Source: a virus (lineage: Duplodnaviria; Heunggongvirae; Uroviricota; Caudoviricetes). From it: a stretch of 64,000 nucleotides of DNA. Positions within the stretch are counted from its first letter, which is position 1, and the number at the start of each line of letters is the position of its first letter. A program made the translations under genes and the position numbers. Of the stretch, positions 5,003 through 50,974 are shown piece by piece. A model generated the notes under the pieces. It was not told the origin of the DNA. It was given only the letters and a program-made list of their open reading frames with translations, and ran no database searches. The stretch is taken from IMG/VR virus record IMGVR_UViG_3300013099_000019; one strand, 5' to 3'.

Positions 5003-5802
<800 letters not shown>

Positions 5803-5803
<1 letters not shown>

Positions 5804-8144: not shown

Positions 8145-9494
8145 ATGATAGAACAAGAAATAACATCAAAACTTGAAGAAGCAGGTTTTGAAGTATATAT
8201 TGTAGGTGGAGCAGTACGTGACTTTATTTTAGGAGAAATTCCTAAAGATTATGATTTTGCTACAAATGCTAAACCAAATGAAGTTATTAGAATTTTTAAT
8301 GATAAAAAAATATGTGTTGTAGGTAAGTCTTTTAAAGTAGTATTAGTTAATGATGTAGAAATTGCTACTTACAGGAAAGATTTACAGGAAGTAATGTTTA
8401 ACCCTAAACATTGTAAGCCTGAATATGCTAAAAATATTACAGAAGATCTTGAACGTAGAGACTTGACTATAAATGCAATGGCTATACAAGTGCATAAAAC
8501 GCTCCTAAATGAAAGAGTTATACTTGACCTACATGGTGGTATAAATGATTTAAATAATGGTGTTATACGCCTTGTAGGTGATCCTTACACTCGTTTAAAT
8601 CAAGATCCGTGTCGTATATTAAGAGCTTGTAGATTTCTTGCTAAAATAGAAGGAACATTTGAAGCAGAAACTTTTAAGGCTTTACAAGATTGTGCTCATT
8701 ATATTAAATCTTATGTTGAGCCAGAACGTATCCGTATAGAAATACTTAAAGCTATGGAACTTAAAGTACCTTCTTTATTTTTTAGTGCTCTACACTTAAT
8801 TGGTGGTTTAAAATATATTTTTCCAGAGTTAGACAAATGTTTTCAACATGATCACGGTAAATATCATAAAGAAAATATAGGCGAACATTGTATGCATGCA
8901 GGAGATGTAGTATCTTCTAGATTTCCTTTACTTCGCTTGGCCGCTTTTTTACATGATGTTGGAAAACCTAAAGCATTTAAGAAACAAGGTGATGGAAGTT
9001 TTATATGTCATGAACTTTATGGAGAAAAAATTGTTATAGAAAGATTACAAAATTTAAAATTTTCTAATAAAGAAGTAGCAACTATAGCCAATCTTGTAGG
9101 TTCACATATGCTTCAATGCAGAAGTTTAAAAGCTAAAGGTATTAGACGCTTACATAAAAAATTAGCAGATAAAAAAGTAGATTCACGTTCCTTTATCCGT
9201 TTAAAACTTGCGGATAGATCTTCTAATATGGCTAAAGATGCTAGTCGTTTTACACCAATTAAAGAATTAATAGTAAATGCCGGAATTCGTGGCTATAAAG
9301 AAGAAATACCTTTTACTGTGAAGGAATTAACAATTTCTGGTGGAGAATTAATTGATTATTTTAATCTAATACCTGGACCTATAGTAGGTAATCTTCAAAA
9401 ATATCTTTTAAACTATGTAATAGAAATGGGAGAAGAGTTTAACACTAGAGATATTCTATTAAAAGAAGCAAAATTAATATTAAAAACTATATAA
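8145..9494 (+). CDS. cca: tRNA nucleotidyltransferase (CCA-adding enzyme) with HD domain
   Basis: N-terminus YIVGGAVRDFILG...DYDFAT is the class-II nucleotidyltransferase head. Downstream HD-type His/Asp motifs (HDVGK) follow. Length is 449 aa. Confidence 0.8.
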   Translation: MIEQEITSKLEEAGFEVYIVGGAVRDFILGEIPKDYDFATNAKPNEVIRIFNDKKICVVGKSFKVVLVNDVEIATYRKDLQEVMFNPKHCKPEYAKNITEDLERRDLTINAMAIQVHKTLLNERVILDLHGGINDLNNGVIRLVGDPYTRLNQDPCRILRACRFLAKIEGTFEAETFKALQDCAHYIKSYVEPERIRIEILKAMELKVPSLFFSALHLIGGLKYIFPELDKCFQHDHGKYHKENIGEHCMHAGDVVSSRFPLLRLAAFLHDVGKPKAFKKQGDGSFICHELYGEKIVIERLQNLKFSNKEVATIANLVGSHMLQCRSLKAKGIRRLHKKLADKKVDSRSFIRLKLADRSSNMAKDASRFTPIKELIVNAGIRGYKEEIPFTVKELTISGGELIDYFNLIPGPIVGNLQKYLLNYVIEMGEEFNTRDILLKEAKLILKTI

Positions 9495-24400: not shown

Positions 24401-24729
24401 ACCTTTTAAGATACCATGCATACATACAAAAAATGGGTGGTTCTAACATTATTAACAGGATTGTTAGGGAAGAAAATAAACTTTATTTTGCTAGTCGTTC
24501 TAGTGTAGATTTAACAGTAGCATTAGATAGTATAGATAAATTTAAAGTAGTAGATATTCCAAGTAGTATTTTTTATAAGATTATGTCTTGTAAGTATAGT
24601 AATACTAAAACACAGCTTGATAAATTTAAAGAAGCTAGAATGTTAAAGGCTTTACATTACTATAATACTATGGAATATAGTATGGTTAAAGAGTTATTTC
24701 AATGTGTGGATAAAATGTTCACTACGTAA
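21445..24729 (+). CDS. single-chain multisubunit-RNAP-like polymerase (beta-prime-type DFDGD motif)
   Basis: 1094-aa ORF. The motif LTLDFDGDVIY near residue 810 resembles the Mg-binding DFDGD of a double-psi beta-barrel (DPBB) domain, as in the YonO/crAss-like phage RNAP group. Confidence 0.5.
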   Translation: MSELAIELMIKNIKAEFTNRVIFSYLRFNPEQTGGIEVDVNEKSININLTFNNEISTIYIPIPYILNGVEFLNKNDVVRPTCKYLHKELNKEFSYLEIINEIFLGSVDLFLPEIYCKSKANTMQLIKYGYENNSLAYTVYTIQKQINYFVNLLPLHNTFMNSWVMNKRITIIDPNFDEIHDPEKQYEYQVEKNRLYFDKGWTSLGLSDGSLASHNYILSYDVRNLTPFGQKFHNPQRNLYSTFGMKGSEQPLLQTQSMKNLADAGISRTGWNLLTVFVDIPDVWEDQIMVDISHADKFTEATKKYICYGKTKAVKGDKPWYNSILYTDPEDKKVRFDIVCDEATVTDIKDSKSVVGGVVYDVKEIVVTYKRFLKDGAKITNLAANKGIIRLKKLGYAIHPITGEKQKIDVIVSSKAVLKRKNYTQILEALLNTVNDNSPIIIDDYAETSEAEIKSTMKSKGYNEEGVWKCSTYAGEYKCVCGKVFWGTTHDADDTTWTKERLNKTNTRGHRSSGLKFSTIEFRALNTRFGNNNAIEKEILSYASGAKDIREWINVLRSKLGKFIYNSGTIDIYDIKPAITNGVLYSKEQLKDTIADSNKHLEGFYLKLPVKYQLVLSEAGEVLSDGFPSSVGETINGIPVKEKIVIDKIYVPYYNLRKSWNHSVGKYGLSDTSNLLNILITMCHRYKDDPESGVGLSLIYKAIYNYFNCVKERVNSKKGDINKLGMSVRYPYSVKAVATLSNSIPKNTVQIHKDMANSLNVKEGDVVLVERFPCLGFMSIRPQKITITSDKSCKFTIRASGNSLGSLTLDFDGDVIYLASFHSPAAKKLLVSEWNNPNKYCIDYINKFNAKMGHPRTKEMSLSDYDIKIFEPLTVDSHAEIIGKLTGVKSFTGPIVALAYNLLRIMENSPIEHTDKVKAGIEVFIDTVANSVFKQKHGKESLHKIVMDAVCTADEQVLVDNGFEPEIVQVVCSTIRKRAVERKITDLLRYHAYIQKMGGSNIINRIVREENKLYFASRSSVDLTVALDSIDKFKVVDIPSSIFYKIMSCKYSNTKTQLDKFKEARMLKALHYYNTMEYSMVKELFQCVDKMFTT

Positions 24730-31554: not shown

Positions 31555-33303
31555 ATGTGTGGAATTGTAGGAATATTTCCGTTTAATAATTTACAAGATA
31601 AACAAGAACAAGCAAGAAAAGAAGCTGCTTTATTTTTATTTACTGAGCTTTTACAGACTACCAGTGCCAGAGGAGAAGATGCTACAGGTGTAACTACATT
31701 ATTTGAAAATGGGGATTACATGATTCAAAAAATGGGTATCTCTTCTCCTAAATTTATTAGCCGTTTTGGAAATAAGGCAAGTGACTTTGAAGGCTATACA
31801 AGTTTATGTTTAAAAAATGAAAAACGTATAAAAGCTTTGATAGGTCATTGTAGAAAAAGCTCGGTTGGTAATACTTATGATAATGAAAATAACCATCCAA
31901 TTAAAGCAGGAGAAATTGTAGGTATCCATAATGGTACACTTAAAAATCATAATAAAATCTTTAAAAATTTAGAATGTGAAAGAGATGGTGTAGTAGATAG
32001 TGAAGCTATTTTTAGACTGATACAGCATTTCACTAATGATTGTAAAGAACCTCTTACACTTAATATTCTTGAAGAAACTGTACGTCGTTTGGATGGTTCT
32101 TACAGTTGTTTAACTTATAATGCTAATATTCCATATCAAATTGGTATTTTTAGAGATGCAAGACCTATGGAATTTGCTTTAATTAAAGGTTTAAACCTGT
32201 TAGTTGTAGCTTCAGAAAAGAAATTTATTGATAAAGCATTATATGATTACAATAAGTATGCTAAATTATATAAAACAAGTTTTAAAATGATTAAAGCTGC
32301 TGATGTGTCAAATGCTTCTTTTCTTAATAATTATGTGGGTATTATAGATCTTACCCAAAAAATTAATAAAGATACAATTATAAATGATTTAATAATTAAA
32401 AAAGATGTTTTTAAAACTGAAAAAATCTGGAAAAGTACTGATGTATATGATTATTATAATAGACGCAAACAAGTAAAAAATATTAATACAAAAAGTACTA
32501 ATGTAACCACTACTAAAACTACTGGTGTTACCGAAAAAAAGTCGGGTTTGACCTCCACTAGTTTTGCGGAGGGAGATACTACAAAACAAAGTGGTATTGA
32601 AGGAAAAATATTCTGTAAAGAGCTTAATAAGTATATTGATCCTGAATCTGTAGAGTATACTTCAAAAATAGGTTGTGTAGAAATTGCTAATACAGGTAAA
32701 AAAGTATTAAGAATTGAAGAAAATCCTATTATTGACGCTGAATTTATGAAAGTAGCTGATGTGACTCCTCCAAAGATTACTACTAAAGAAGTTGATTTAA
32801 ATGTAGATACAGATATAATTGAGGGTTCAAAAAATTCTAATGACTCTTTATTAAAATATAAAAGTAACGAAGATTTAGCAGAAGATATTGAAGCGAATGA
32901 TGTTAAATCCGTAGAAGCACTTCCAGCTTTCGCTCTAGCAAATAGGATAAGAAAACATGCTTATGAAGCTGCTTTTATAGACGGCGCAACTTTTTATAAA
33001 AAATTAGATGTTAATACTAAATTGGATAAACTGCAAAAAATCCTTAAGTTTTCTAAAAAAATTATAAGAATTTTAGCTTTAAACACTGAATTACGTTCTA
33101 TAAACAATAATAATGATCAATCTAAAAAGTATTGTATGGAAGAGTGTGTAAGAGAAGAAGATACTAAAAAAGAATTAACTACAGAAGATTTAAATAAACT
33201 GGTTTCTACAGGGGATAAAACTGATTGTAAATCTTTAATACTTTTAGAAAAAGCAATAAAAGAGGTTAATGATGGAAAGGCACATACTGCTGGTAAAATC
33301 TAA
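31555..33303 (+). CDS. class-II (Ntn) glutamine amidotransferase domain protein with long low-complexity C-terminal region
   Basis: N-terminal MCGIVGI has the Cys nucleophile at position 2, as in PurF/GlmS/AsnB, followed by ...GHCRKSSVG...HNG. The C-terminal half is Lys/Thr/Asp-rich. Confidence 0.65.
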   Translation: MCGIVGIFPFNNLQDKQEQARKEAALFLFTELLQTTSARGEDATGVTTLFENGDYMIQKMGISSPKFISRFGNKASDFEGYTSLCLKNEKRIKALIGHCRKSSVGNTYDNENNHPIKAGEIVGIHNGTLKNHNKIFKNLECERDGVVDSEAIFRLIQHFTNDCKEPLTLNILEETVRRLDGSYSCLTYNANIPYQIGIFRDARPMEFALIKGLNLLVVASEKKFIDKALYDYNKYAKLYKTSFKMIKAADVSNASFLNNYVGIIDLTQKINKDTIINDLIIKKDVFKTEKIWKSTDVYDYYNRRKQVKNINTKSTNVTTTKTTGVTEKKSGLTSTSFAEGDTTKQSGIEGKIFCKELNKYIDPESVEYTSKIGCVEIANTGKKVLRIEENPIIDAEFMKVADVTPPKITTKEVDLNVDTDIIEGSKNSNDSLLKYKSNEDLAEDIEANDVKSVEALPAFALANRIRKHAYEAAFIDGATFYKKLDVNTKLDKLQKILKFSKKIIRILALNTELRSINNNNDQSKKYCMEECVREEDTKKELTTEDLNKLVSTGDKTDCKSLILLEKAIKEVNDGKAHTAGKI

Positions 33304-33307
33304 TAGT

Positions 33308-34579
33308 ATGGATAATAATAAGAAGGAGGGTAGACAAGAAAATACCCTTCTTCGTGCAGCAAATACTACTAGAGATTACTTAAAACTAGACGCTGATGTT
33401 GTAAAAAATATTCATAGTTCAAAAAATGAATATTCTGATGACTTGTATCCTTTTAAAGCTTATGCTAGAGATATTAAAAGAGTAAAAGAACTACAAGAAG
33501 CAGGTATAATTAAAGAAAAAGATTTAAATAAAGTATGCTTCGTAACAACTAGTACTTTTAATAAATTTACAAAACAGCCTGAAAAACAATTTATTACTGC
33601 AATTTTAGATAAAAATTTTGATAAATTACTTATAGGAACAGACCCAGAATTACTTTTAATGCATAATAACGAAGTAGTTCATGCAAGTAATATACCTAAT
33701 TTCTCAAAACTTTCAAAATTCGGTAGTGACGGTGCCATGGCAGAATTACGCCCTGATCCAGCATTTACATCTAAAGGCCTTGTAGAAAATATACGTAAAT
33801 TATTAACAGATAATGAATTAACAGCTAGCATTAAAAAATATGATTGGTTATCTGCATGTTATTTTGAAAATGCTAATAGAGATTTTCCTGTAGGAACTCA
33901 TTTACATTTTGACAATCCTACAAAAATAAAAAATATTGATATGATGCAAAGAAAACGTTTATTTGCAGTAACCAATAAAATTATTGACGAACTACTTACA
34001 GTACCTATGATACGTTTAGATGGCCTTTCTGGACATAATAGAAGAGCTAAATGTAAAATGAGTCAGGTGGGCGGTTTTGGAAATAACTACGGTGTCGGTT
34101 ATGGATTTTTTGGAGAGTGGCGTGTCTGTGAAGGAAGATTAGAACACAGAAGTTTATCTGGATTAGTAATTTCTGATCCAAAAATTTGTGAGGCTGTGTT
34201 CGGTGTTGGACAAGCTATTGTTGAAGCAGTATACAAAGAAGCCATCAATAACGATTTAAACTCAGAATTTATTTTGCCCAAAAATTTTGATTCTAACACT
34301 ATATATTCAAAACTTTTTAAAGACTGGCAAAAAATTCCGCTAGCAAAGACTTTTAATTGTACAAAAACAACTAATTTTATGCGTAATATTATGGATAAAA
34401 GTTCCAGAGTAGATATTAGTGTTGAGTACATAAAAAGATGGTTAAAAAATATTAGAAAATTACCTACTTACGGAAAATATGAACACAGTGTAGAGTTTTT
34501 AGGAGAATTGTTATCTAAAAATTCAAAATCACTTGATAAATTAGATAAAAACATTAAACATAATTGGGGAATAATATGA
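33308..34579 (+). CDS. GCS2 / glutamine-synthetase-like amidoligase, paralog 4
   Basis: IGTDPELLLMH and VGTHLHFDNP. Start set at the ATG just after the upstream stop. Confidence 0.5.
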   Translation: MDNNKKEGRQENTLLRAANTTRDYLKLDADVVKNIHSSKNEYSDDLYPFKAYARDIKRVKELQEAGIIKEKDLNKVCFVTTSTFNKFTKQPEKQFITAILDKNFDKLLIGTDPELLLMHNNEVVHASNIPNFSKLSKFGSDGAMAELRPDPAFTSKGLVENIRKLLTDNELTASIKKYDWLSACYFENANRDFPVGTHLHFDNPTKIKNIDMMQRKRLFAVTNKIIDELLTVPMIRLDGLSGHNRRAKCKMSQVGGFGNNYGVGYGFFGEWRVCEGRLEHRSLSGLVISDPKICEAVFGVGQAIVEAVYKEAINNDLNSEFILPKNFDSNTIYSKLFKDWQKIPLAKTFNCTKTTNFMRNIMDKSSRVDISVEYIKRWLKNIRKLPTYGKYEHSVEFLGELLSKNSKSLDKLDKNIKHNWGII

Positions 34580-39416: not shown

Positions 39417-39985
39417 AAATGGAAGATTTTAAAAAAGAAACTACATTTACGCATTTAGAAATTTGTGAAAAATTAGGTAAAGCTTTAGTTGATCTTAATG
39501 CTGATCAAATAGCTTCTTTATACAATAAAATTTTTATGTCTTATAGTGATTTTGAGTATAAAGGTGATGATAAATATGTTTTAACTGAATATGCTCCTAT
39601 GAAAAAAGGTGAAGGAGACCACATAGTTGTTGGGGCTTATTATGAATTACCTAATGGAAAAATTGCTTATATCTACGGGTATCATGGGTTAAAAAGAGTT
39701 GTATCTTACTACTTTGATGATAATCAAGGTGGAAGAAGTATAAGCTTTGAAAAAGTAAAAAGCTGGAAAAAAAGAAATAAGTTGAAGGATTTTCCTAATG
39801 CTAAAGACCCAAAATTACCTTATGTTTTTGATTTGTTCTGGGATATTAAACATTATTCAGAACTTAAAAATTTAATAGCTGAACACAGTGAAGATTGGTT
39901 AGAACATGAAGGTGTTATTGAAGAAATTGTTAAAAATAAATTGTCAAATAAATTTTTAAGTAATAAAATTATTGACAATTTGTAA
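39410..39985 (+). CDS. hypothetical protein
   Basis: 191-aa ORF overlapping the upstream stop. Confidence 0.45.
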   Translation: MLKMEDFKKETTFTHLEICEKLGKALVDLNADQIASLYNKIFMSYSDFEYKGDDKYVLTEYAPMKKGEGDHIVVGAYYELPNGKIAYIYGYHGLKRVVSYYFDDNQGGRSISFEKVKSWKKRNKLKDFPNAKDPKLPYVFDLFWDIKHYSELKNLIAEHSEDWLEHEGVIEEIVKNKLSNKFLSNKIIDNL

Positions 39986-40006
39986 AAAAAGTAGTATAAT
40001 AAAGTT

Positions 40007-40084
40007 TAGAGATGGTGTATAGTACAGTTACTTCAACTTGTAAATTGACCTGTAAAACTGTACTAGTTTGTTCCTCTCTATTTT
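40007..40084 (+). ncRNA. conserved extended hairpin element, copy 1 (terminator-like; candidate small ncRNA / Y-RNA-like)
   Basis: tagagatgg-tgtat-agtacagt-tacttca...actgtact-agtttgtt-cctctcta-tttt. Two helices (tagagaNgg/cctctcta and agtacagt/actgtact) flank an internal loop. The element is near-identical to the copy at 44317. Confidence 0.6.
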
Positions 40085-40119
40085 ATATAATAAATTAACT
40101 AGGATAAAAGGTAATTAAG

Positions 40120-40314
40120 ATGGCTAAAAAACGAACTGGACCAAAACCTATTACAACTGCTAACATTAAAGATAAATCTTTTATTAAGAAAAAGAAAAAG
40201 ATTAATACTTATACTGTAAAAGAACTTATAGCTTTTGTAGCTTTTCTTAGCAGTAGTTGTCCTAATTCAAAAGTACATATTTCGGCAAAGAAGAGATTAG
40301 CTGAATTGGTGTAG
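40120..40314 (+). CDS. hypothetical basic protein
   Basis: 64-aa ORF. Confidence 0.35.
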   Translation: MAKKRTGPKPITTANIKDKSFIKKKKKINTYTVKELIAFVAFLSSSCPNSKVHISAKKRLAELV

Positions 40315-40316
40315 TA

Positions 40317-40505
40317 ATGATTGTAAAAATTATAGAAACAAACAAAGTGGAATTACATTTTAAATCTTCATGTGAAAATTGTGGAGGTATTACTGCTGGT
40401 GTTGATAATGTAAGTATAACTGATTTAATTGATACTGGTGTACCTATATGTCAAGAATGCGGTGATGATCTTGAACTTAAAGACTTATGTAAAATTAATA
40501 TTTAA
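40317..40505 (+). CDS. zinc-ribbon protein
   Basis: CENCGG...CQECGDD; 62 aa. Confidence 0.35.
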
Positions 40506-40511
40506 AATTAA

Positions 40512-40588
40512 GCGCCCATAGCTCAGCTGGATAGAGCAACGGCCTTCTAAGCCGTAGGTCGCAGGTTCGAATCCTGCTGGGCGTACCA
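40512..40588 (+). tRNA. tRNA-Arg(UCU) with encoded CCA
   Basis: Cloverleaf gcgccca / gctcagctggatagagc / acggc-cttctaa-gccgt / gcagg-ttcgaat-cctgc / tgggcgt-a-cca. Anticodon is TCT. Confidence 0.8.
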
Positions 40589-40742
40589 GTAGTATCATAG
40601 TCATAAAGTATTTTTTAATGAAAATTAATACTTGTAAAAGGCACTTGTAGTGCATGAACAGTAACTACATTAGTGAAAGTAGTACGTATTTCATAGTGAA
40701 ATTTAAAATTTGGCTTAACTCAACTAAATTTTATACTACTTA

Positions 40743-40812
40743 GAATATATAGCTCAATTGGAAGAGTGATAGGCTTTCCCCTATGACGTAGGTTCAATTC
40801 CTACTATATTCT
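40743..40812 (+). tRNA. tRNA-like gene with non-canonical anticodon arm (possibly Glu-UUC-like)
   Basis: Acceptor gaatata/tatattc (7 bp), D arm gctc..gagt, T arm gtagg-ttcaatt-cctac. The anticodon stem atagg/cctat only pairs if the loop is 6 nt (ctttcc). The variable region is 3 nt. Confidence 0.45.
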
Positions 40813-40822
40813 GAACAAACAT

Positions 40823-41151
40823 GGGCGTGTGGCGGAACGGCAGACGCATGGGAGGACCAGAAAGTCAGTCCCCTTTTATTAGAAATAGTAATCGAAAATT
40901 GGATGAATTCAAGGAAGGCTAAACCTAACTATTAGGTATGCTAACCCTGAGCGAAGCCTTAAGTACACTTAAGGAACGTGCAGAGACTACCTGAGAGATA
41001 TAGTTCTCTTAATAACAGGCAAGAGCGTCCGATACCTTAACAAATAAAGTTGCAGGTAATGAGATAGTCCATGCTACTATGAAAATAGTAGACACACAGC
41101 TTAAAATCCCTTGATCTTATGATCGTGAGAGTTCGAATCTCTCCATGCCCA
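40823..41151 (+). tRNA. tRNA-Leu(UAA)-like gene interrupted by a ~246-nt group-I-like intron
   Basis: 5' part gggcgtg-tg-gcg-gaacggcaga-cgc-a-tggga (Leu-type D arm). 3' part cttaaaa-tccct-[tgatcttatgatcgt]-gagag-ttcgaat-ctctc-catgccc-a. Acceptor gggcgtg/catgccc is fully paired. Confidence 0.6.
40854..41099 (+). other. group-I-like intron (IA-type R and S elements) within tRNA-Leu
   Basis: R-like cagagactac and S-like gagatagtcc match T4-type group IA consensus (UCAGAGACUACA / AAGAUAUAGUCC). A P9-like hairpin ctacta..tagtag is present. The intron ends with G (41099) directly before the anticodon loop cttaaaa. Confidence 0.5.
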
Positions 41152-41174
41152 AATTATTTTAAGTAGGAGTTTAT

Positions 41175-41360
41175 GTGAGAAGATTAAAATACTTAGAAAC
41201 ATCCACAATGAAAGTTGTTCTTTGTGATTGTCATCATACAACAGGTTTTGATAATTGTTTATTAACTAAAATAAAAAGCTTGCCTAAATTTGCTAATTGT
41301 GGTAGAGTACTATATATTAAAAGGTACTTTAAAAAATTAATGGTTTTGTGTAAAGATTGA
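41175..41360 (+). CDS. hypothetical small Cys/His-containing protein
   Basis: 61-aa ORF between tRNA genes. Confidence 0.3.
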   Translation: MRRLKYLETSTMKVVLCDCHHTTGFDNCLLTKIKSLPKFANCGRVLYIKRYFKKLMVLCKD

Positions 41361-41473
41361 CATAAGTGACTACATGACCCTCTCCATGTATGTCTGTATA
41401 GGAGCTGGCTGTCCCTACAAATTCGGTCTACGAATAACAGTTTTATTTTAAAATTTAATTAAAGGTAATTATT

Positions 41474-41590
41474 ATGACACCAGAATTTTTAAATGAAATT
41501 TCTTGGTATATAACCAGTGTTACATTTGCATTAGGTACATTTGTTATAGGTTTTGCTTTTGGTTACTGGGCAAAAAAACAAGAATATTAA
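41474..41590 (+). CDS. small single-pass membrane peptide (38 aa)
   Basis: I translated MTPEFLNEISWYITSVTFALGTFVIGFAFGYWAKKQEY. Confidence 0.3.
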   Translation: MTPEFLNEISWYITSVTFALGTFVIGFAFGYWAKKQEY

Positions 41591-41597
41591 GTATTAT

Positions 41598-41676
41598 AGG
41601 GTGATATTCTAACGGTAAGGAGCCAGGTTTTGATCCTGGTGCGAAAGCTCTGCAGGTTCGAATCCTGCTCACCCTG
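41598..41676 (+). tRNA. tRNA-Gln(UUG)-like with unusually long (12-nt) variable region
   Basis: Acceptor agggtga/tcaccct. Anticodon stem ccagg/cctgg with loop ttttgat (anticodon TTG). T arm gcagg-ttcgaat-cctgc. Confidence 0.55.
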
Positions 41677-41686
41677 AATAAAAAAT

Positions 41687-42003
41687 TTCTAATCTGGAAG
41701 GTTGGCTTAGAAGCAGCAATCCTTTAAAGAGTAGAGCAAGTACGGATCGCAAACGATGAAGCTACGAGTTGCCCAAAACACTTGTAGTGGAGATGAAGTT
41801 GGGCCAGAGTAATAAGTAAATGACGTCATACTTATAAGAGGTGATGCCTGTCTATACTACGACAAGACAACATAAAAGTATATAGATGGTAGATGCAGTC
41901 CTGCTCCTGATGAGGCGAACGAGTTGTACATGGTAAGTAGTGAAGTACCCCAGAAATGGTAAGGCGGCACTCTCTTTTGGCGTAATAGCACACCAGATTA
42001 GAA
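41687..42003 (+). ncRNA. candidate ~315-nt structured non-coding RNA in tRNA cluster
   Basis: No ORF on either strand. GC-enriched relative to flanks. An 11-bp terminal inverted repeat (ttctaatctgg / ccagattagaa) would close the domain. It lies between two tRNA genes. Confidence 0.45.
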
Positions 42004-42023
42004 TTTATTTTAAGGAGAATTAA

Positions 42024-42572
42024 ATGTTAATAACAGCATATATTGAGGAAGACTTTTTAAGTTTAGATTCAAAAAAATATGTAAATAAAAAAGAAACTGT
42101 GGTACAAGTATTACCTACAAAAAAAATGTTTGACCGGGTACAACAATTACAAATAGCTGTTAAAAATGTAAATGCAATGTACATAGATGATTTTAATTAT
42201 GCTCCTAAATGGGAAGAATTATATTTAGAAGACTCTAAAATTATCCCTGACATAGCAAGAATTGTTGTAGATAAAAGTACTATACATTGGACTTGTATTG
42301 TAAAACATACTAATATTATTGTAAGAACAGAAGTGGTAGATATTAATAAATTTTTTTCTAAATTTATTAATAAAGATGTAAAAAAGATTACTGGTACAAA
42401 TAATACTACGCCTTATGAAAAACTTAAAAGTATAGCTAATTTTGCTGTGGACGACTTAGATATTGAAGGTTTACAAGAATTATCTTATACAAGTATTCTT
42501 AATTTTCTTGATGACTGTACTAATGAGCAAATTGAACAGCAAATTGAATTTTATGGATATCCAACAAATTAA
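42024..42572 (+). CDS. hypothetical protein
   Basis: 182-aa ORF with a GGAG RBS. Confidence 0.5.
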   Translation: MLITAYIEEDFLSLDSKKYVNKKETVVQVLPTKKMFDRVQQLQIAVKNVNAMYIDDFNYAPKWEELYLEDSKIIPDIARIVVDKSTIHWTCIVKHTNIIVRTEVVDINKFFSKFINKDVKKITGTNNTTPYEKLKSIANFAVDDLDIEGLQELSYTSILNFLDDCTNEQIEQQIEFYGYPTN

Positions 42573-42582
42573 GGAGTTTTTT

Positions 42583-42804
42583 ATGTGTGATACTTGTAAA
42601 GAATTATTTAAATTATTAGAAGAATGTATAGAGTCATCTTGTGATGAGTGTAATTATCATGAGTACTCTACAGTTGCAATATCTGATTACTGTACAAATG
42701 ATGCCAGTCCTAAAAGTGCTGGATGGATGAGCGGTTCTTATGGGTGTAGTCATCATTCAAAGATAAAACAATTAAAAGAAAAATACTTGACATTAATTGA
42801 GTAG
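42583..42804 (+). CDS. Cys-rich small protein
   Basis: MCDTCKELFK...CDECNYHEY...CTND; start follows an AAGGAG RBS. Confidence 0.45.
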   Translation: MCDTCKELFKLLEECIESSCDECNYHEYSTVAISDYCTNDASPKSAGWMSGSYGCSHHSKIKQLKEKYLTLIE

Positions 42805-42806
42805 TG

Positions 42807-42815
42807 TGTTATAAT
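42807..42815 (+). promoter_or_regulatory. extended -10 promoter element (tgttataat) immediately upstream of tRNA-like gene
   Basis: TGnTATAAT lies 8 nt before the 5' end of the tRNA-like gene at 42823. Confidence 0.4.
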
Positions 42816-42822
42816 ACAAATA

Positions 42823-42953
42823 TTGGAAGTAGCTCAGTGGTAGAGCCTCAGCCCCCAAAAAATCTCTTTTCGCTTATTCCCTTAACTGTGGTGTAGAATA
42901 GAGATACTTCATACTCAAGCTGATGGTCGTTGGTTCAATCCCAACCTTCCAAT
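42823..42953 (+). ncRNA. tRNA-like gene with 66-nt conserved structured insert replacing/expanding the anticodon loop (insert family member 1)
   Basis: Acceptor ttggaag/cttccaa (7/7). D arm gctc-agtggta-gagc. Anticodon stem tcagc/gctga encloses 66 nt. T arm gttgg-ttcaatc-ccaac. The insert carries the TGCTTATTCC and GGTGTAGAATAGAGATACTTCA blocks. Confidence 0.55.
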
Positions 42954-42960
42954 TAAAATG

Positions 42961-43134
42961 TTAGAGATGGCGAAACTGGTATACGCGCTGGTAAAAAAAG
43001 CCTTTATTTGCTTATTCCCTTTATATGTAACCGTCTAGGATGGTTGCTATTTCAGTGGTGTAGAATAAAGATACTTCAAATGGGAACCGGTTAGGTTAAT
43101 CCTAGTGTAGGTTCGAGTCCTACTCTCTAGCCCA
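42961..43134 (+). ncRNA. tRNA-like gene (type II, CCA encoded) with 93-nt conserved insert (insert family member 2)
   Basis: Acceptor ttagaga/tctctag (t-g at 1:72). D arm gcg-aaactggtata-cgc. Stem ctggt/accgg encloses the insert. Variable hairpin tagg-ttaat-ccta. T arm gtagg-ttcgagt-cctac, then c-cca. The insert contains TGCTTATTCC and GGTGTAGAATAAAGATACTTCA. Confidence 0.5.
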
Positions 43135-43330
43135 TAAAAATTATTTATCGTTAGTAAGGAGCGAAACTAATGTACTTGTTGTCAAACCCTGGCAAGTATA
43201 CCGAACATATCCAATGTTTTTAAACTGGAGATATGGTACTTGAAGAATCTAGCGGTTCAAAACACCCAAGAGTAAAGGGATGTGAGGAGTGTTACGATAA
43301 ATATCTTAGTATTACTAAAAGGAAAAATAT

Positions 43331-43468
43331 ATGCCTGATACAAAAGACTTTTACTGTGTATTTAGTATTATGGGTTTAGTTTTTATAGCTACTACTGTAT
43401 GTGCTTGGGAAATTATAAAATTTGTATTTAAATTTATTGTAGCACATGTGTCAATTATATTTATGTAA
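43331..43468 (+). CDS. small hydrophobic peptide (45 aa)
   Basis: I translated MPDTKDFYCVFSIMGLVFIATTVCAWEIIKFVFKFIVAHVSIIFM. Confidence 0.25.
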   Translation: MPDTKDFYCVFSIMGLVFIATTVCAWEIIKFVFKFIVAHVSIIFM

Positions 43469-43542
43469 AGGAGTACAAATGAAACTATATCAAGAGTATG
43501 ATACCAAATAAGGAAATTTAAAAACTTATTAAGAGGTCATAC

Positions 43543-44115
43543 ATGAAAAATCAATTTTTTGTTTATACTAAAGAAGGAATTTATAAATCTTTTGTACATT
43601 ATTATCATTTACTTAATTTTTTAAGACTACGTAATTGGGGCAAATTTGGACATTCTTTTAAAGATAAACGTAGGGTCACAATAAAAGTTAAAGATACTTG
43701 GTCCTATAAGGGTAATGTATTTTTAATGGGTCCTACAAAACTTATAAAAATAAAATATATAGCTAAAGATATAAACGGTAAAGTACTTAATTGTAAAAAA
43801 CTTGAAGATGATGCTTATTACGCTGAAAATTTTAAACCTGATTATTCTAAAATAAGATATATAGGTTGGAAAGCAAGACATCAAAATTATCCTGGCTTTA
43901 GAAAAGGTCCTGTACCTTATACAGGTGGTTGGGGTAGATATTGTTGGTTAAGACATATTAAAACTACTCAAGAAAGAAGACTTAATTGTACTTATAAAAA
44001 GTATGTAAGAGCTAAAAGAAAAAATTTGCCAAGTTATTGGGACGATATAAAACGTTCAGACACAAATCGTACACAATCTTGGAAAAGAAGTAAAAAATGT
44101 AAACAATGGATGTAA
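43543..44115 (+). CDS. hypothetical basic (Lys/Arg/Trp-rich) protein
   Basis: 190-aa ORF with high pI, possibly nucleic-acid binding. Confidence 0.45.
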   Translation: MKNQFFVYTKEGIYKSFVHYYHLLNFLRLRNWGKFGHSFKDKRRVTIKVKDTWSYKGNVFLMGPTKLIKIKYIAKDINGKVLNCKKLEDDAYYAENFKPDYSKIRYIGWKARHQNYPGFRKGPVPYTGGWGRYCWLRHIKTTQERRLNCTYKKYVRAKRKNLPSYWDDIKRSDTNRTQSWKRSKKCKQWM

Positions 44116-44127
44116 AAAATAAATTAT

Positions 44128-44304
44128 GGTATATCTTGAATTAGAAAAAGTACTTAATACTTTGGTTAAAAATGCAACTAAAGAAAGTAATTTTTATCAA
44201 ACTGCTGACGCATTTAAAAAAGTTTTTGAAGATAGAACTACTACAGCAACTGACCAAGTAAATAAAATTATAAAAATTATTAAAAATAGAACTATAAGTA
44301 ACTA
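44128..44304 (+). CDS. hypothetical small protein (58 aa)
   Basis: I translated MVYLELEKVLNTLVKNATKE.... It fits the inter-ORF gap. Confidence 0.3.
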
Positions 44305-44316
44305 AATTTGTATGTT

Positions 44317-44391
44317 TAGAGATGGTGTATAGTACAGTTACTTCACTTTTAATGAAACTAACACTGTACTAGTTTGTTCCTCTCTATTTTT
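44317..44391 (+). ncRNA. conserved extended hairpin element, copy 2 (terminator-like; candidate Y-RNA-like), adjacent to tRNA-Met and the Ro60-like gene
   Basis: Same 5' arm tagagatggtgtatagtacagttacttca and 3' arm actgtactagtttgttcctctcta-ttttt as copy 1. The apical region differs between copies. Confidence 0.6.
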
Positions 44392-44393
44392 AA

Positions 44394-44468
44394 GGGCATT
44401 TAGCTTAGCTGGCCAAAAGCCATCGGCTCATAACCGATCGATCCGGGGTTCGACTCCCTGAATGCCCA
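44394..44468 (+). tRNA. tRNA-Met/Ile2 (CAU anticodon), elongator-type
   Basis: Acceptor gggcatt/aatgccc with a paired 1:72. Anticodon stem atcgg/ccgat with loop ctcataa (CAT). T loop ttcgact. Confidence 0.65.
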
Positions 44469-44512
44469 AGTATATTTATATAATTAATAATACCTTGTAA
44501 GGAGGAATTACA

Positions 44513-45889
44513 ATGGCGAGTTTAAACAAAAAACCAGTAGTAAAATTTACACATGAAGGTGGTAAAGCAAAACATATCAATGCTGCACTTGAACTTGAAA
44601 GGACAGTTATGGCTTGTATGCTTTGGGAAAGATCTTTTTATGAGTCTGGAGAATCTATTGTAGATAGAATTCAACAACTTGTAGCTAAAGTAGCCCCTAA
44701 AAAAGTAGCTGAGCTGGCAATAAAAGCACGTTATGATATGAAACTTCGTCATGTACCTTTATTACTTGTAAGTATTATGGTAAAATTACCAGCTTACAGG
44801 CCTTATGTTTCTGATACTTTATTTCAAATTATCAATAGACCTGATGAAATGGCAGAATTTTTAGCTATGTATTGGAAAGATGGAAAATGTCCTGTAGCTA
44901 ATTCTGTTAAAAGAGGTTTGGCCTCTTGTTTTCTTAAATTTAATGAGTATCAATTTTCTAAATGGAATAGACCTAATGCTATTAAACTAAGAGATGTAAT
45001 GTTTATTTGTCATCCTAAACCTGTAAATAAAAAGCAAGAAGATATGTTCAAAAGAATTGCTGATGATACTCTTGAAGTTCCTGATACTTGGGAAGTAGCA
45101 CTTAGTTCAGGAGCAGATAAGCAAAAAACATGGACAAGATTACTAGAAGAGAAAAAGTTGGGCGGTATGGCTCTTATCAGAAATCTTCGTAACATGGAGA
45201 ATGTAGGAGTAGATAAGCAATTAGTTAAAAAAAGTATTACAGAAATAAAATCTAATTTTATTTTACCCTTTAGATACATTGCTGCAGCAAAATATGCTCC
45301 TAAATTTGAACCAGAATTAGAGTATGCTATGTTTAATTCTTTAGTTACACACGATAAATTAAAAGGAAATACAGTTCTTTTGATTGATGTTTCTGGTTCT
45401 ATGTGGCAATCTCTTTCAAGTAAATCAGATATGTTACGAATTGATACTGCTTGTGGTTTAGCTATGTTACTTAGAGAAATTTGTGAAGATATAGATATTT
45501 ATACTTTCTCATTAGAATTAAAAAGTGTAGCTCCAAGAAGAGGTTTTGCACTTAGGGATGCGATTATAAATTCTCAAGATCATAGTGGAACATATTTAGG
45601 CCATGCAGTAAAAAATATTTATGCAAAGAAGGGTAGTAGTGACAGGTTTTCTGGTTATTACAGGGGACACCTTACGTTTAAAGGCCAAGGACTAAGTCCA
45701 GAACGTCTTATTGTTATAACTGATGAACAGTCCGCAGATAAAGTACCTAATCCAAAAGGTAAAGGTTATATGATGAATGTAGCCTCTTATCAAAATGGTG
45801 TAGGGTATGGCGCTTGGACACATATTGATGGTTTTAGTGAGTCATGTGTGAAATGGTTACAAGCTATGGAAAATTGTGCATTTTTATAA
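44513..45889 (+). CDS. Ro60-like (TROVE domain + vWA domain) RNA-binding protein
   Basis: The N-terminal ~300 aa resemble the Ro/TROVE fold (ERSFYESGESIVDRIQQLV...KLRHVPLLLVSIM). The C-terminus has the vWA MIDAS motif VLLIDVSGSMW. A TROVE+vWA pair is the Ro60/Rsr architecture. AGGAGG RBS is present. Confidence 0.55.
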   Translation: MASLNKKPVVKFTHEGGKAKHINAALELERTVMACMLWERSFYESGESIVDRIQQLVAKVAPKKVAELAIKARYDMKLRHVPLLLVSIMVKLPAYRPYVSDTLFQIINRPDEMAEFLAMYWKDGKCPVANSVKRGLASCFLKFNEYQFSKWNRPNAIKLRDVMFICHPKPVNKKQEDMFKRIADDTLEVPDTWEVALSSGADKQKTWTRLLEEKKLGGMALIRNLRNMENVGVDKQLVKKSITEIKSNFILPFRYIAAAKYAPKFEPELEYAMFNSLVTHDKLKGNTVLLIDVSGSMWQSLSSKSDMLRIDTACGLAMLLREICEDIDIYTFSLELKSVAPRRGFALRDAIINSQDHSGTYLGHAVKNIYAKKGSSDRFSGYYRGHLTFKGQGLSPERLIVITDEQSADKVPNPKGKGYMMNVASYQNGVGYGAWTHIDGFSESCVKWLQAMENCAFL

Positions 45890-50629: not shown

Positions 50630-50810
50630 GTACTGCCAAACCCAAGAGGTAGAGTTAAAAAGTGGATATAGTGGCAGTTGGTGTAAAAAATTTAAAGGTT
50701 ATTATGTTTTTTGTCCTTTTTGTTACGCTAGCGGTCCTATTAGGCCTAAACAAGTAGAAGCCATTCAATTATGGGATGGTGAAAAAATACTTATAAAAAA
50801 TAAATCTTGA
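50607..50810 (+). CDS. small zinc-ribbon protein
   Basis: CKYCQT...CPFCYASG. Confidence 0.4.
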   Translation: MKKMKACKYCQTQEVELKSGYSGSWCKKFKGYYVFCPFCYASGPIRPKQVEAIQLWDGEKILIKNKS

Positions 50811-50833
50811 CATATTAAAATTTATATGTCAAG
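50806..50833. promoter_or_regulatory. perfect 10-bp inverted repeat cttgacatat-N8-atatgtcaag (operator-like / hairpin) overlapping a TTGACA box
   Basis: Palindrome directly upstream of the tRNA-like gene at 50850. A similar cttgacat also precedes the tRNA-like gene at 51375. Confidence 0.45.
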
Positions 50834-50849
50834 ATATATATATATACAT

Positions 50850-50974
50850 TGCGCTGTGATGTAATTGGTAACATGGAAAATCTCACTTTTTGCTTATTCC
50901 TCTTTTAGATGGTGTAAAAAAGTGTTACTTCATATCATAAATGGCCTCTCCAGGTTCGAGTCCTGGCGGCGCAA
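50850..50974 (+). ncRNA. tRNA-like gene with ~70-nt conserved insert (insert family member 3); anticodon stem not identifiable
   Basis: Acceptor tgcgctg/cggcgca. D arm atgt-aattggta-acat. T arm ccagg-ttcgagt-cctgg. The internal region carries TGCTTATTCC and GGTGTAAAAAAGTGTTACTTCA, with helix cacttttt/aaaaagtg. Confidence 0.5.

What the first reader, a model, noticed from the sequence alone, without database searches (positions are those of the whole stretch)
42823..43134. tRNA-like genes whose anticodon loop is replaced or expanded by a conserved 66-93-nt structured insert, with compensatory base changes
Three genes (42823-42953, 42961-43134, 50850-50974) have perfect 7-bp acceptor stems and D and T arms. 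The anticodon stem (where identifiable) encloses a long insert. All inserts share TGCTTATTCC and GGTGTA(G/A)AA.A.AG.TACTTCA blocks. The flanking helix covaries between copies (atctcttt/aatagaga, ctttatt/aataaag, cacttttt/aaaaagtg). This implies a selected RNA structure rather than junk. The inserts are too short for group I introns and no BHB motif is obvious. They could be a new small intron class, a ribozyme or processing module, or tRNA-scaffolded non-coding RNAs.
Basis: seen in the sequence. Interest (0 to 1): 0.88.

Follow-up and report, generated by a model that had tools for sequence, protein, structure and literature searches.

The report
Phage Y RNAs with tRNA topology
The three odd "tRNAs with a long insert" are most likely not intron-bearing tRNAs but phage Y RNAs: tRNA-shaped RNAs whose anticodon arm carries the docking site for the Ro60 protein encoded 1.4 kb away, built in an arrangement (free acceptor end, capped Ro60 site) that I did not find described for this RNA family.

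Summary
Three genes (42823-42953, 42961-43134, 50850-50974) have 7-bp acceptor stems and D and T arms. Each carries a conserved hairpin where the anticodon loop should be. The hairpin is not an intron. Its conserved blocks (CGCUUAUUCC, GGUGUAG, UUACUUC) and covarying stem also form two free-standing 74-nt hairpin RNAs in the same window (40008-40081, 44318-44391). All five genes lie on the strand of a Ro60/TROVE gene (44513-45889). The same blocks flank small RNAs beside 39 of 51 related phage Ro60 genes and appear in 0 of 72 unrelated viral loci. In those relatives most copies are linear, with their ends at the Ro60-site stem. Rfam's YrlA model matches them below threshold (E about 1e-8). The window's three RNAs are circular permutations of that design: the acceptor stem is open and the Ro60-site stem is capped by a loop. 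I found the same topology in crAss001 and its relatives, unannotated, and in a few environmental phages. Acceptor, D, T and P1 helices covary across 23 sequences. Verdict: Y RNAs of the YrlA kind in an unpermuted tRNA topology, a new variant of a known kind. Ro60 binding, processing and function are inferred, not shown.

The parts
42823..42953 (+). Y RNA copy 1, tRNA topology. Acceptor 42823-42829 pairs with 42946-42952; U73 at 42953. D arm 42832-42846. Anticodon stem UCAGC 42848-42852 pairs with GCUGA 42919-42923. 5' linker 42853-42863. V loop 42924-42928. T arm 42929-42945.
   Evidence: Rfam tRNA 50.2 bits with a 65-nt insert; ARAGORN with introns allowed; sequence read.
42864..42911 (+). 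Putative Ro60-binding module of copy 1. P1 5' strand CUCUUUU 42864-42870. Block B CGCUUAUUCC 42871-42880. Cap loop 42881-42889. Block A GGUGUAG 42890-42896. P1 3' strand AAUAGAG 42897-42903. AUACUUCA 42904-42911.
   Evidence: Model R1 65.7 bits (by construction); fold; the same blocks beside Ro60 genes elsewhere.
42961..43134 (+). Y RNA copy 2, tRNA topology with a class-II-like body. Acceptor 42961-42967 pairs with 43124-43130; C73 at 43131; encoded CCA 43132-43134. D arm 42970-42986. Anticodon stem CUGGU 42988-42992 pairs with ACCGG 43086-43090. Long variable arm about 43091-43106. T arm 43107-43123.
   Evidence: Sequence; ARAGORN with introns allowed; fold.
43002..43078 (+). Putative Ro60-binding module of copy 2. 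P1 CUUUAUU 43002-43008 pairs with AAUAAAG 43064-43070. Block B UGCUUAUUCC 43009-43018. 38-nt cap with its own hairpin 43019-43056. Block A GGUGUAG 43057-43063. AUACUUCA 43071-43078.
50850..50974 (+). Y RNA copy 3, tRNA topology. Acceptor 50850-50856 pairs with 50967-50973; A73 at 50974. D arm 50859-50874. Module: P1 CACUUUU 50884-50890 pairs with AAAAGUG 50918-50924; Block B 50891-50900; cap 50901-50910; Block A GGUGUAA 50911-50917; UUAC 50925-50928. Then an anticodon-like hairpin: UUCAU 50929-50933, loop AUCAUAA 50934-50940, AUGGC 50941-50945. T arm 50950-50966.
   Evidence: Sequence.
40008..40081 (+). Short linear Y RNA 1 (YrlB-like): AGAGA-U-GGUGUAU-AGUACAG-UUACUUC-apical hairpin-CUGUACU-AGUUUGUUCC-UCUCU.
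   Evidence: Motif and pairing scan; sequence; fold z = -2.75.
44318..44391 (+). Short linear Y RNA 2, same design. Its apical hairpin is UUCA-CUUUUAA-UGAA. It lies directly upstream of tRNA-Met (44394-44468) and the Ro60 gene.
44513..45889 (+). Ro60/Rsr homologue (TROVE domain, 458 aa), the presumed protein partner of the five RNAs.
   Evidence: Pfam TROVE E 1.9e-18. PHROG 850 'RNA-binding protein' E 6.8e-39 over the full length (one search gives the family context; the hit itself is). PDB 9KOP/9L5Y, Thermus phage Ro60, E 7e-22.
42787..42815 (+). Perfect sigma-70-type promoter (TTGACA-17-TATAAT, with TG upstream of the -10). It places the transcription start at or next to the first acceptor base of copy 1.
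   Evidence: 12 of 12 matches.
39972..40000 (+). Perfect sigma-70-type promoter immediately upstream of short Y RNA 1.
   Evidence: 12 of 12 matches.
8145..9494 (+). CCA-adding enzyme / poly(A) polymerase family gene. It is a possible accessory that would add CCA to copies 1 and 3. The link to the RNAs is inferred only.
   Evidence: Pfam PolyA_pol head 5e-30, RNA-binding domain, HD, tRNA_NucTran2_2.

Best explanation
The three genes encode Y RNAs, the non-coding RNA partners of Ro60, belonging to the tRNA-mimicking YrlA kind but circularly permuted relative to it.

Architecture. Each RNA is transcribed and processed like a tRNA and has a free 5'/3' acceptor stem and D and T arms. Its anticodon arm is extended into a hairpin made of four elements:
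- a variable, covarying stem (P1);
- a conserved imperfect helix with a bulge (CGCUUAUUCC opposite GGUGUAG);
- a variable cap;
- a conserved single-stranded UUACUUC on the 3' side.

Proposed mechanism. The conserved helix is the docking site for the phage Ro60 ring encoded at 44513-45889. The resulting RNP displays a tRNA-like module that tethers Ro60 to a tRNA- or RNA-binding effector. By analogy with Deinococcus, Salmonella and Thermus phage phiLo, the effector would be the host exoribonuclease PNPase, so the phage would redirect RNA decay or quality control, or counter a host defence.

The two short RNAs at 40008-40081 and 44318-44391 carry the same Ro60 site with ordinary Y-RNA ends.

Shown here: the sequence architecture, covariation, co-occurrence with Ro60 genes, the permutation relative to YrlA, and promoter position.

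Inferred: Ro60 binding, RNase P and CCA processing, the PNPase or other effector, and the biological role.
For: 1. A TROVE/Ro60 gene lies 1.4 kb downstream of copies 1 and 2 and 5 kb upstream of copy 3, on the same strand.

2. The module's blocks and pairing rule are found 5 times on the + strand of the window and never on the - strand. They occur 75 times in 39 of 51 loci holding related Ro60 genes and 0 times in 586 kb of unrelated viral loci.

3. In relatives the same blocks sit at the ends of linear RNAs that contain T arm, closed acceptor hairpin and D arm. Rfam YrlA (RF02553) matches these:
- L119 9137-9240, 44.2 bits, E 9.5e-9;
- Caulobacter phage CcrColossus, named as a Y-RNA-encoding phage in PMC12135203 citing Chen 2014, 42.3 bits, E 1e-7.

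4. The conserved features correspond to the published YrlA landmarks (PMC4201824): a GNCGAAN0-1G-like motif (GGCGAAG and GGCGUAG in relatives, GGUGUAG here) and YUAY (UUAC).

5. Topology. In relatives, P1 pairs with the next downstream Block B (7/7 in 39 of 62). In the window's three RNAs it pairs with the upstream Block B (6, 7 and 7 of 7).

6. Across 23 tRNA-topology sequences from the window, environmental phages and crAss-like phages:
- all 7 acceptor pairs show changes on both sides, with 98.8% of cells paired;
- D and T stems are 100% paired and P1 is 91.3% paired;
- the whole structure is 89.6% paired against 71.3% in shuffles (0 of 500 reach it) and at most 52% when the partner columns are slid.

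7. The caps are independent stable hairpins in other phages: CGC-UUCG-GCG in L097, ACA-GUAA-UGU and CCC-GAA-GGG in crAss001.

8. A perfect promoter ends 7 nt before the acceptor stem of copy 1.

9. Phage Ro60 binds phage Y-like RNAs and host PNPase in vitro (PMC12135203). A phage Ro60-like gene counters a defence system (PMC11482910).
Against: - There is no experimental evidence of transcription, processing or Ro60 binding for these RNAs.
- The Rfam YrlA model does not match the window at E <= 10. This is expected for a permuted molecule, but family assignment therefore rests on shared motifs and context, not on a model hit.
- The conserved helix P2 is only partly base-paired, and its inner pairs are not maintained across crAss-like homologues (helix 4 is 62% paired).
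- Block A differs from the published GNCGAA at two positions.
- Copy 3 has no recognisable sigma-70 promoter and no enclosing anticodon stem.
- MFE z-scores for the whole molecules are weak (-0.7 to -1.8).
- Copy 1's P1 3' strand pairs slightly better with copy 2's 5' strand (7/7) than with its own (6/7). An alternative fold of a dimeric precursor is therefore possible.
Confidence: 0.78

Rival explanations
1. They are intron-containing tRNA genes. The 60-90-nt insert is a new small self-splicing or protein-spliced intron, or a ribozyme, that is removed to give functional tRNAs.
For: - The insert lies inside the anticodon stem in copies 1 and 2.
- ARAGORN with introns allowed reports them as intron-tRNAs.
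- Removing 50876-50928 from copy 3 would leave a plausible tRNA with stem UUCAU/AUGGC and loop AUCAUAA, anticodon CAU.
- The phage does carry a real group I intron in a tRNA-Leu-like gene.
Against: - The same module forms free-standing RNAs and the termini of linear YrlA-type RNAs.
- Removal from copies 1 and 2 leaves UACUCAA and AAUGGGA, which lack U33.
- ARAGORN's anticodon calls for homologues are inconsistent.
- No Rfam intron or ribozyme family matches at E <= 10, whereas the real group I intron scores 79 bits.
- Occurrence tracks Ro60 genes.
- I did not search the window for RNA-ligase or splicing-endonuclease genes; the 29 larger ORFs scanned gave no such hit.
Confidence: 0.05
2. The functional RNA is a canonical, permuted YrlA that spans the copy 1 to copy 2 junction. 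It would run from GGUGUAG at 42890 through T arm, acceptor halves and D arm to GCUUAUUCC at 43018. The outer halves would be by-products.
For: - Copy 1's P1 3' strand pairs 7/7 with copy 2's P1 5' strand.
- Tandem arrays of linear YrlA RNAs in relatives have the same local order of elements.
Against: - The would-be closed acceptor hairpin CUUCCAA/UUAGAGA pairs at only 5 of 7 positions, against 7 of 7 for both tRNA-type acceptor stems.
- Rfam YrlA finds nothing in 42700-43300 at E <= 10, although it finds linear relatives.
- The promoter sits at the acceptor 5' end.
- Copy 3 stands alone.
- Acceptor covariation in 23 tRNA-topology homologues.
Confidence: 0.07
3. They are working (decoding or chargeable) tRNAs that have gained an extra Ro60-binding arm. 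Alternatively they are anticodon-arm decoys that bring Ro60 to, or soak up, host tRNA-targeting enzymes.
For: - Free acceptor ends, an encoded CCA in copy 2 and a phage CCA-adding enzyme gene.
- Copy 3 and many homologues have a 7-nt anticodon-like loop with U33 and R37 after UUAC: AUCAUAA, CUUUUAA, CUUGUAA, CUGUUAA.
- M. smegmatis YrlA receives CCA after RNase P cleavage (PMC4201824).
Against: - Copies 1 and 2 have no canonical anticodon loop.
- The anticodon-like hairpin is only moderately enriched: at least 4 of 5 stem pairs in 57% against 34% at random positions, and U33 plus R37 in 38% against 17%.
- A 50-80-nt arm at the D/anticodon junction would probably clash with the ribosome. This is inference.
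Confidence: 0.1

Closest known systems
YrlA (Y RNA-like A; Rfam RF02553; Chen et al. 2014, PMC4201824; structure in bioRxiv 10.1101/312249)
   Same: - Encoded on the same strand near a Ro60/TROVE gene.
- A Ro60-site motif of the GNCGAA type, followed by a stem, then YUAY.
- A tRNA-like module with D arm, T arm and acceptor stem.
- The Ro60 site extends the anticodon-stem position.
- Linear relatives with identical blocks match the Rfam model.
   Different: Published YrlA has its 5'/3' ends at the Ro60-site stem and a closed acceptor hairpin, described as a 'circularly permuted tRNA' lacking a free CCA end. Here the acceptor stem is open, with CCA encoded in copy 2, and the Ro60-site stem is closed by a loop. 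The Rfam model does not detect these RNAs.
YrlB, and the short Y RNAs Yrl1/Yrl2 of Thermus phage phiLo (PMC12135203)
   Same: The window's two 74-nt RNAs (40008-40081, 44318-44391) are of this simple stem-bulge-stem type. They sit next to the Ro60 gene. phiLo Ro60 binds such RNAs and host PNPase in vitro.
   Different: The three RNAs of the finding carry a complete tRNA body. No binding data exist for this phage.
Deinococcus radiodurans Yrn1 and metazoan Y RNAs
   Same: A bulged conserved helix as the Ro60 site plus an effector module. Yrn1 tethers Rsr to PNPase.
   Different: In Yrn1 the Ro60-site stem takes the place of the acceptor stem (PMC4201824). Metazoan Y RNAs have no tRNA-like module. 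The conserved helix sequence differs: GGUCCGA/UUGACC there, GGUGUAG/UUAUUCC here.
tRNA genes with group I introns in the anticodon loop (for example the tRNA-Leu(UAA)-like gene at about 40823-41151 in this window)
   Same: A long insertion inside the anticodon arm of an otherwise normal tRNA gene.
   Different: The group I intron is 273 nt and matches Rfam Intron_gpI at 79 bits. The modules here are 48-77 nt, match no intron or ribozyme family, and also occur outside tRNA bodies.
Circularly permuted tRNA genes (algae, archaea) and one-piece versus two-piece (permuted) tmRNA
   Same: The same RNA architecture exists in two circular permutations in different lineages.
   Different: Those are processed into canonical tRNA or tmRNA. 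Here both permutations appear to be end products that bind Ro60 (inferred).

Membership tests
Y RNA / YrlA | Encoded within a few kb of a Ro60 (TROVE) gene, on the same strand | tested here: met
   Copies 1 and 2 end 1.4-1.6 kb upstream of the gene at 44513-45889. Copy 3 starts 5 kb downstream of its end. All are on the + strand. Copy 3 lies just outside the 4-kb window used by Chen 2014.
Y RNA / YrlA | Conserved Ro60-binding motif GNCGAAN0-1G next to a stem | tested here: inconclusive
   The window has GGUGUAG, GGUGUAA and GGUGUAU. Relatives grade from exact GGCGAAG through GGCGUAG to GGUGUAG in the same position. The motif is homologous by position but differs from the published one at two bases. 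Binding was not tested.
Y RNA / YrlA | Conserved YUAY after the stem | tested here: met
   UUAC in copy 3 and in both short RNAs; AUAC in copies 1 and 2.
Y RNA / YrlA | tRNA-like module with D arm, T arm and acceptor stem | tested here: met
   Rfam tRNA 50.2 bits for copy 1. Covariation of acceptor, D and T helices in 23 homologues.
Y RNA / YrlA | 5'/3' ends at the Ro60-site stem, with the acceptor stem closed by a loop (permuted tRNA order T - acceptor - D) | tested here: not met
   The order here is acceptor 5', D, Ro60 site, T, acceptor 3'. P1 pairs with the upstream block. Rfam YrlA gives no match at E <= 10. These are therefore a variant, not canonical members.
Y RNA / YrlA | Physical binding to Ro60; tethering to PNPase | not testable with these tools
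   Needs EMSA or co-immunoprecipitation. The only support is analogy with PMC12135203 and PMC4201824.
Ro60/Rsr protein | TROVE (HEAT-repeat ring) domain; homology to solved Ro60 structures | tested here: met
   Pfam TROVE 1.9e-18. PDB 9KOP/9L5Y E 7e-22 over residues 13-369. PHROG 850 over the full length. The vWA/MIDAS domain was not separately confirmed.
Intron-containing tRNA (group I or other self-splicing intron) | Intron has a catalytic core; excision restores a 7-nt anticodon loop with U33 | tested here: not met
   No intron or ribozyme family at E <= 10. The residual loops of copies 1 and 2 lack U33. The module occurs outside tRNA bodies.
Canonical tRNA | Cloverleaf with a 7-nt anticodon loop, detected by standard tRNA finders | tested here: not met
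   Default ARAGORN does not report them. The anticodon loop is replaced in copies 1 and 2, or displaced by 53 nt in copy 3.

The most novel reading that the evidence does not exclude
The tRNA-topology Y RNAs are the unpermuted form from which YrlA arose, or the reverse, by tandem duplication and re-cutting. Because their acceptor end is free, they would be matured by RNase P and the phage CCA-adding enzyme and possibly aminoacylated.

Together with the anticodon-loop-like hairpins (CUUUUAA, CUUGUAA, AUCAUAA), they could let phage Ro60 RNPs engage tRNA-specific host factors rather than only PNPase. Candidates are anticodon nucleases of anti-phage systems, synthetases and EF-Tu. This would be a tRNA-decoy or tether mechanism used by crAss-like phages, which are reported as highly abundant in the human gut (PMC8375218), and by their distant relatives.
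Probability: 0.2. Interest if true: 0.85.

Novelty: new variant of a known kind. Interest (0 to 1): 0.6.

Why it matters
Y RNAs and Ro60 are conserved from bacteria to humans, yet Chen et al. 2014 state that the role of the tRNA-like module of bacterial and phage Y RNAs is not known.

A natural version with a free acceptor end makes several questions directly testable:
- Is the module processed, CCA-tailed or charged?
- What does it recruit?
- How did the tRNA mimic arise?

The finding also explains a class of "tRNAs with introns", odd tRNA calls and unannotated gaps in phage genomes. Examples are the unannotated 900 bp after the early TROVE gene of crAss001 and the YrlA of CcrColossus annotated as tRNA-Gln.

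It gives the early-expressed TROVE protein of crAss-like phages candidate RNA partners. It also shows that the Rfam YrlA model cannot detect this permuted form.

Tried and rejected
1. The exact-pattern scan of IMG/VR with GCTTATTCC-N8-38-GGTGTARAA gave 72 loci. All were chance or coding matches without TACTTCA. Those loci were later reused as a negative control.

2. blastn of 42600-43400 against INPHARED phages gave no match. tblastn of the 1094-aa RNA-polymerase-like protein also gave no match, so the phage itself has no close sequenced relative there.

3. I considered the conserved CUUCAUA/CUUCAAA as a UCA (opal-suppressor or Sec-like) anticodon loop and rejected it. No flanking stem closes it, and UUACUUC is equally conserved in the short, non-tRNA Y RNAs.

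4. Known small ribozymes (hammerhead, twister, pistol, hatchet, HDV-like) gave no Rfam hit at E <= 10.

5. Covariance model R1 of the capped module finds the three copies by construction, and also L097 and crAss001. It also scores junctions between tandem linear Y RNAs, so its bit score alone does not separate the topologies. P1 complementarity and acceptor pairing were used instead.

6. The metagenome scan with the Ro60 protein found no relative closer than 60% identity. Orthologous copies of the three RNAs could therefore not be compared.

7. The whole-molecule MFE z-scores are unremarkable. Thermodynamics alone would not have flagged these RNAs.

Full report
**1.

The three genes are at the stated coordinates. 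Copy 1 (42823-42953) aligns end to end with the Rfam tRNA model at 50.2 bits, E 8e-10, with 65 nt inserted in the anticodon loop. Copy 2 (42961-43134) has a class-II-like body with a long variable arm and an encoded C73-CCA. Copy 3 (50850-50974) has acceptor, D and T arms but no enclosing anticodon stem.

Default ARAGORN reports none of them. With introns allowed it reports copies 1 and 2.

The composite block GGTGTARAA-N5-12-TACTTCA occurs three times against 0.01 expected by chance.

The insert folds as follows:
- a variable stem, P1;
- a 2-3-nt (C/U)GC bulge;
- an imperfect conserved helix, UUAUUCC opposite GGUGUAG with a U.U mismatch;
- a conserved single-stranded (A/U)UACUUCA on the 3' side.

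**2. The surroundings change the interpretation**

The ORF at 44513-45889 is a Ro60/Rsr homologue:
- Pfam TROVE, E 1.9e-18;
- PHROG 850 over its full length;
- the solved Thermus phage Ro60, E 7e-22.

Ro60 proteins bind Y RNAs. Bacterial and phage Y RNAs of the YrlA class contain a tRNA-like module and are encoded beside Ro60 on the same strand (PMC4201824).

The window holds two further RNAs with the same blocks, at 40008-40081 and 44318-44391. Their layout is AGAGA-U-GGUGUAU-AGUACAG-UUACUUC-apical hairpin-CUGUACU-AGUUUGUUCC-UCUCU. They fold as classical stem-bulge-stem Y RNAs, with z-scores of -2.75 and -1.88.

Two perfect TTGACA-17-TATAAT promoters occur in 39900-45000. One lies immediately upstream of the first short RNA. 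The other ends 7 nt before the acceptor stem of copy 1.

**3. Related loci**

The Ro60 protein has 51 relatives in IMG/VR at 41-60% identity and 80 in metagenomes. Beside them lie arrays of small RNAs built from the same blocks: GG(C/U)G(U/A)AG, a 7-nt strand, UUACUUC, the complementary 7-nt strand, then CG(C/U)UUGUUCC.

A motif-plus-pairing detector gave these counts:

| Sequence set | Modules found |
|---|---|
| TROVE-relative loci (51 loci, 708 kb) | 75, in 39 loci |
| Unrelated viral loci (72 loci, 586 kb) | 0 |
| Window, + strand | 5 |
| Window, - strand | 0 |

I also paired the two blocks by motif alone, without using complementarity. The adjacent 7-mers then pair 7/7 in 39 of 62 RNAs and at least 6/7 in 50 of 62. 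Random partners give 2.5% and 13.5%.

**4. Link to the known family**

In most relatives the RNA is linear. It starts at GGYGNAG and ends at CGYUUGUUCC, and it contains either just a loop (YrlB-like) or T arm, closed acceptor hairpin and D arm (YrlA-like).

Rfam's YrlA model (RF02553, gathering score 69 bits) matches such RNAs below threshold but significantly:
- L119 9137-9240, 44.2 bits, E 9.5e-9;
- Caulobacter phage CcrColossus, 42.3 bits, E 1e-7. PMC12135203, citing Chen 2014, names this phage among those with reported Y-like RNAs.

The conserved GGYGNAG corresponds in position to the published GNCGAAN0-1G Ro60 motif, and some relatives have exactly GGCGAAG. UUAC corresponds to the published YUAY (PMC4201824).

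**5. What is different here**

Published YrlA RNAs have their ends at the Ro60-site stem and a closed acceptor hairpin. They are described as circularly permuted tRNAs that lack a free CCA end (bioRxiv 10.1101/312249).

In the window's three RNAs, P1 pairs with the block upstream (6/7, 7/7, 7/7), not with the one downstream. The Ro60-site stem is therefore capped by a loop and the acceptor stem carries the ends. That is the normal tRNA gene order. Rfam YrlA accordingly finds nothing in 42700-43300 at E <= 10.

The same topology occurs elsewhere:
- L097, with a CGC-UUCG-GCG cap;
- L088, L102/L247 and L230/L239;
- Bacteroides phage crAss001, where the unannotated 900 bp after the TROVE gene (Gp96) hold two short Y RNAs and two tRNA-topology ones. 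The latter have acceptors GGAGGGA/UCCCUCC and GGGGAUG/CAUCCCC and caps ACA-GUAA-UGU and CCC-GAA-GGG;
- most of the 54 crAss001-like IMG/VR loci, with one to three copies each.

I aligned 23 diverse tRNA-topology sequences, including copies 1 and 3:

| Helix or measure | Result |
|---|---|
| Acceptor stem | all 7 pairs change on both sides; 98.8% of cells paired |
| D stem | 100% paired |
| T stem | 100% paired |
| P1 | 91.3% paired |
| Whole structure | 89.6% paired |
| Shuffled control | 71.3% (0 of 500 shuffles reach the observed value) |
| Slid-register controls | at most 52% |
| Covariation score | 0.515 against 0.166 in shuffles |

The conserved helix P2 is kept mainly by sequence. Only its outer pairs are maintained (62% paired). 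That pattern fits a protein-recognition site.

**6. Why it is not an intron or a ribozyme**

- The module exists on its own (the short RNAs) and at the termini of linear RNAs.
- Excising it from copies 1 and 2 leaves UACUCAA and AAUGGGA, neither of which has U33.
- ARAGORN's anticodon calls for homologues vary arbitrarily.
- No intron or ribozyme family matches.
- The phage's genuine tRNA intron looks quite different. It is a 273-nt group I intron (79 bits) inside a tRNA-Leu(UAA)-like gene at about 40823-41151.

One rival reading is that a canonical YrlA spans the copy 1 to copy 2 junction. Copy 1's P1 3' strand does pair 7/7 with copy 2's 5' strand. Four observations disfavour it: the would-be closed acceptor pairs at only 5 of 7 positions, Rfam YrlA gives no hit there, the promoter sits at the acceptor 5' end, and copy 3 stands alone.

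**7. Most likely mechanism (inferred)**

- Transcription starts from the promoter at 42787-42815.
- 5' and 3' maturation proceeds as for tRNAs. CCA is encoded in copy 2. For copies 1 and 3 it may be added by the enzyme encoded at 8145-9494.
- The phage Ro60 binds the capped conserved helix.
- The exposed tRNA-like module tethers an effector. PNPase is the precedent (PMC4201824, PMC12135203).

A phage Ro60-like gene has been reported to counter the Ppl defence system, and its authors guessed that neighbouring "tRNA" genes might be Y RNAs (PMC11482910). In crAss001 the TROVE gene is an early gene (PMC8375218).

**8. Novelty**

I found no paper in the held library that connects crAss-like phages with Y RNAs or that describes an acceptor-open YrlA. 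The search is limited to that library.

I classify this as a new variant of a known kind. It is interesting to Ro60/Y-RNA and phage-RNA specialists and useful for annotation, but it is not a new class of intron or ribozyme.

**9. Caveats**

- Nothing here shows expression, processing or binding.
- E-values from my own model are rough, and the three window copies match it by construction.
- The alignment used for covariation is dominated by crAss-like sequences. Copies 1 and 3 are slightly misaligned in the Block B region.
- Copy 3 lacks a recognisable promoter.

Noticed in passing
window 40819-41151: A class-II tRNA-Leu(UAA)-like gene is split by a genuine group I intron (Rfam Intron_gpI 79.2 bits, 40819-41091). 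Acceptor GGGCGUG/CAUGCCC, T arm GAGAG-UUCGAAU-CUCUC, and the 3' exon begins ...CUUAAAAUCCC. Default ARAGORN does not report it.
   Followed up: partly
window 40743-40812: tRNA-like gene with a 6-nt anticodon loop. ARAGORN reports 'tRNA-???' with anticodon 'tt'; Rfam tRNA scores 53.8 bits. It lies immediately upstream of the intron-containing tRNA.
   Followed up: no
window 44342-44356 and 40031-40049; 50929-50945; many relatives: After the conserved UUAC, many Y RNAs of both topologies have a small hairpin with a 7-nt loop that looks like an anticodon loop (U33, R37). Examples: UUCA-CUUUUAA-UGAA (Lys-UUU-like) in short Y RNA 2, CUUGUAA in short Y RNA 1, AUCAUAA (CAU) in copy 3, and CUUUUAA, CUGUUAA, AUGCUAA in relatives. 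The enrichment over random positions is moderate. Chen 2014 calls this hairpin 'V'. It could be an anticodon-arm mimic.
   Followed up: partly
L125 (Bacteroides phage crAss001 NC_049977) 5517-6087: Four unannotated Y-RNA-like genes lie directly downstream of the TROVE gene Gp96: two short (5517-5600, 5612-5685) and two in tRNA topology (5694-5838, 5949-6087). The window also shares a TROVE plus SPFH/Band7 gene pairing with crAss001 (window 55291-56619).
   Followed up: partly
L124 (Caulobacter phage CcrColossus NC_019406) 3173-3240: RefSeq annotates a 'tRNA-Gln' that overlaps a YrlA-type Y RNA beginning GGCGUAG-AUGUCAC-UUACUUC. It is probably a mis-annotated Y RNA. Five or six Y RNAs precede the TROVE gene there.
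   Followed up: partly
window 8145-9494: The phage encodes a CCA-adding enzyme / poly(A) polymerase family protein with an HD domain.
   Followed up: no
window 21445-24729: A 1094-aa protein has weak matches to both RNA polymerase Rpb2 domain 6 and Rpb1 domain 2 (a fused beta/beta'-like polymerase?). tblastn finds no match in 50,697 INPHARED phage records.
   Followed up: partly
window 50804-50835: A 12-bp perfect inverted repeat (ATCTTGACATAT...ATATGTCAAGAT) lies just upstream of copy 3, followed by an (AT)n run. It could be a terminator for the minus strand or a regulatory hairpin. No sigma-70 promoter was found for copy 3.
   Followed up: no
window 31555-34579: Adjacent glutamine amidotransferase-like and phiEco32-like COOH-NH2 ligase genes (Pfam hits). 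They may form a nucleotide, tRNA or peptide modification module. I found no connection to the finding.
   Followed up: no
L082 8660-9053: A relative phage contig encodes a full tmRNA (113 bits) and more than 20 tRNAs next to its Ro60 gene and Y RNAs.
   Followed up: no
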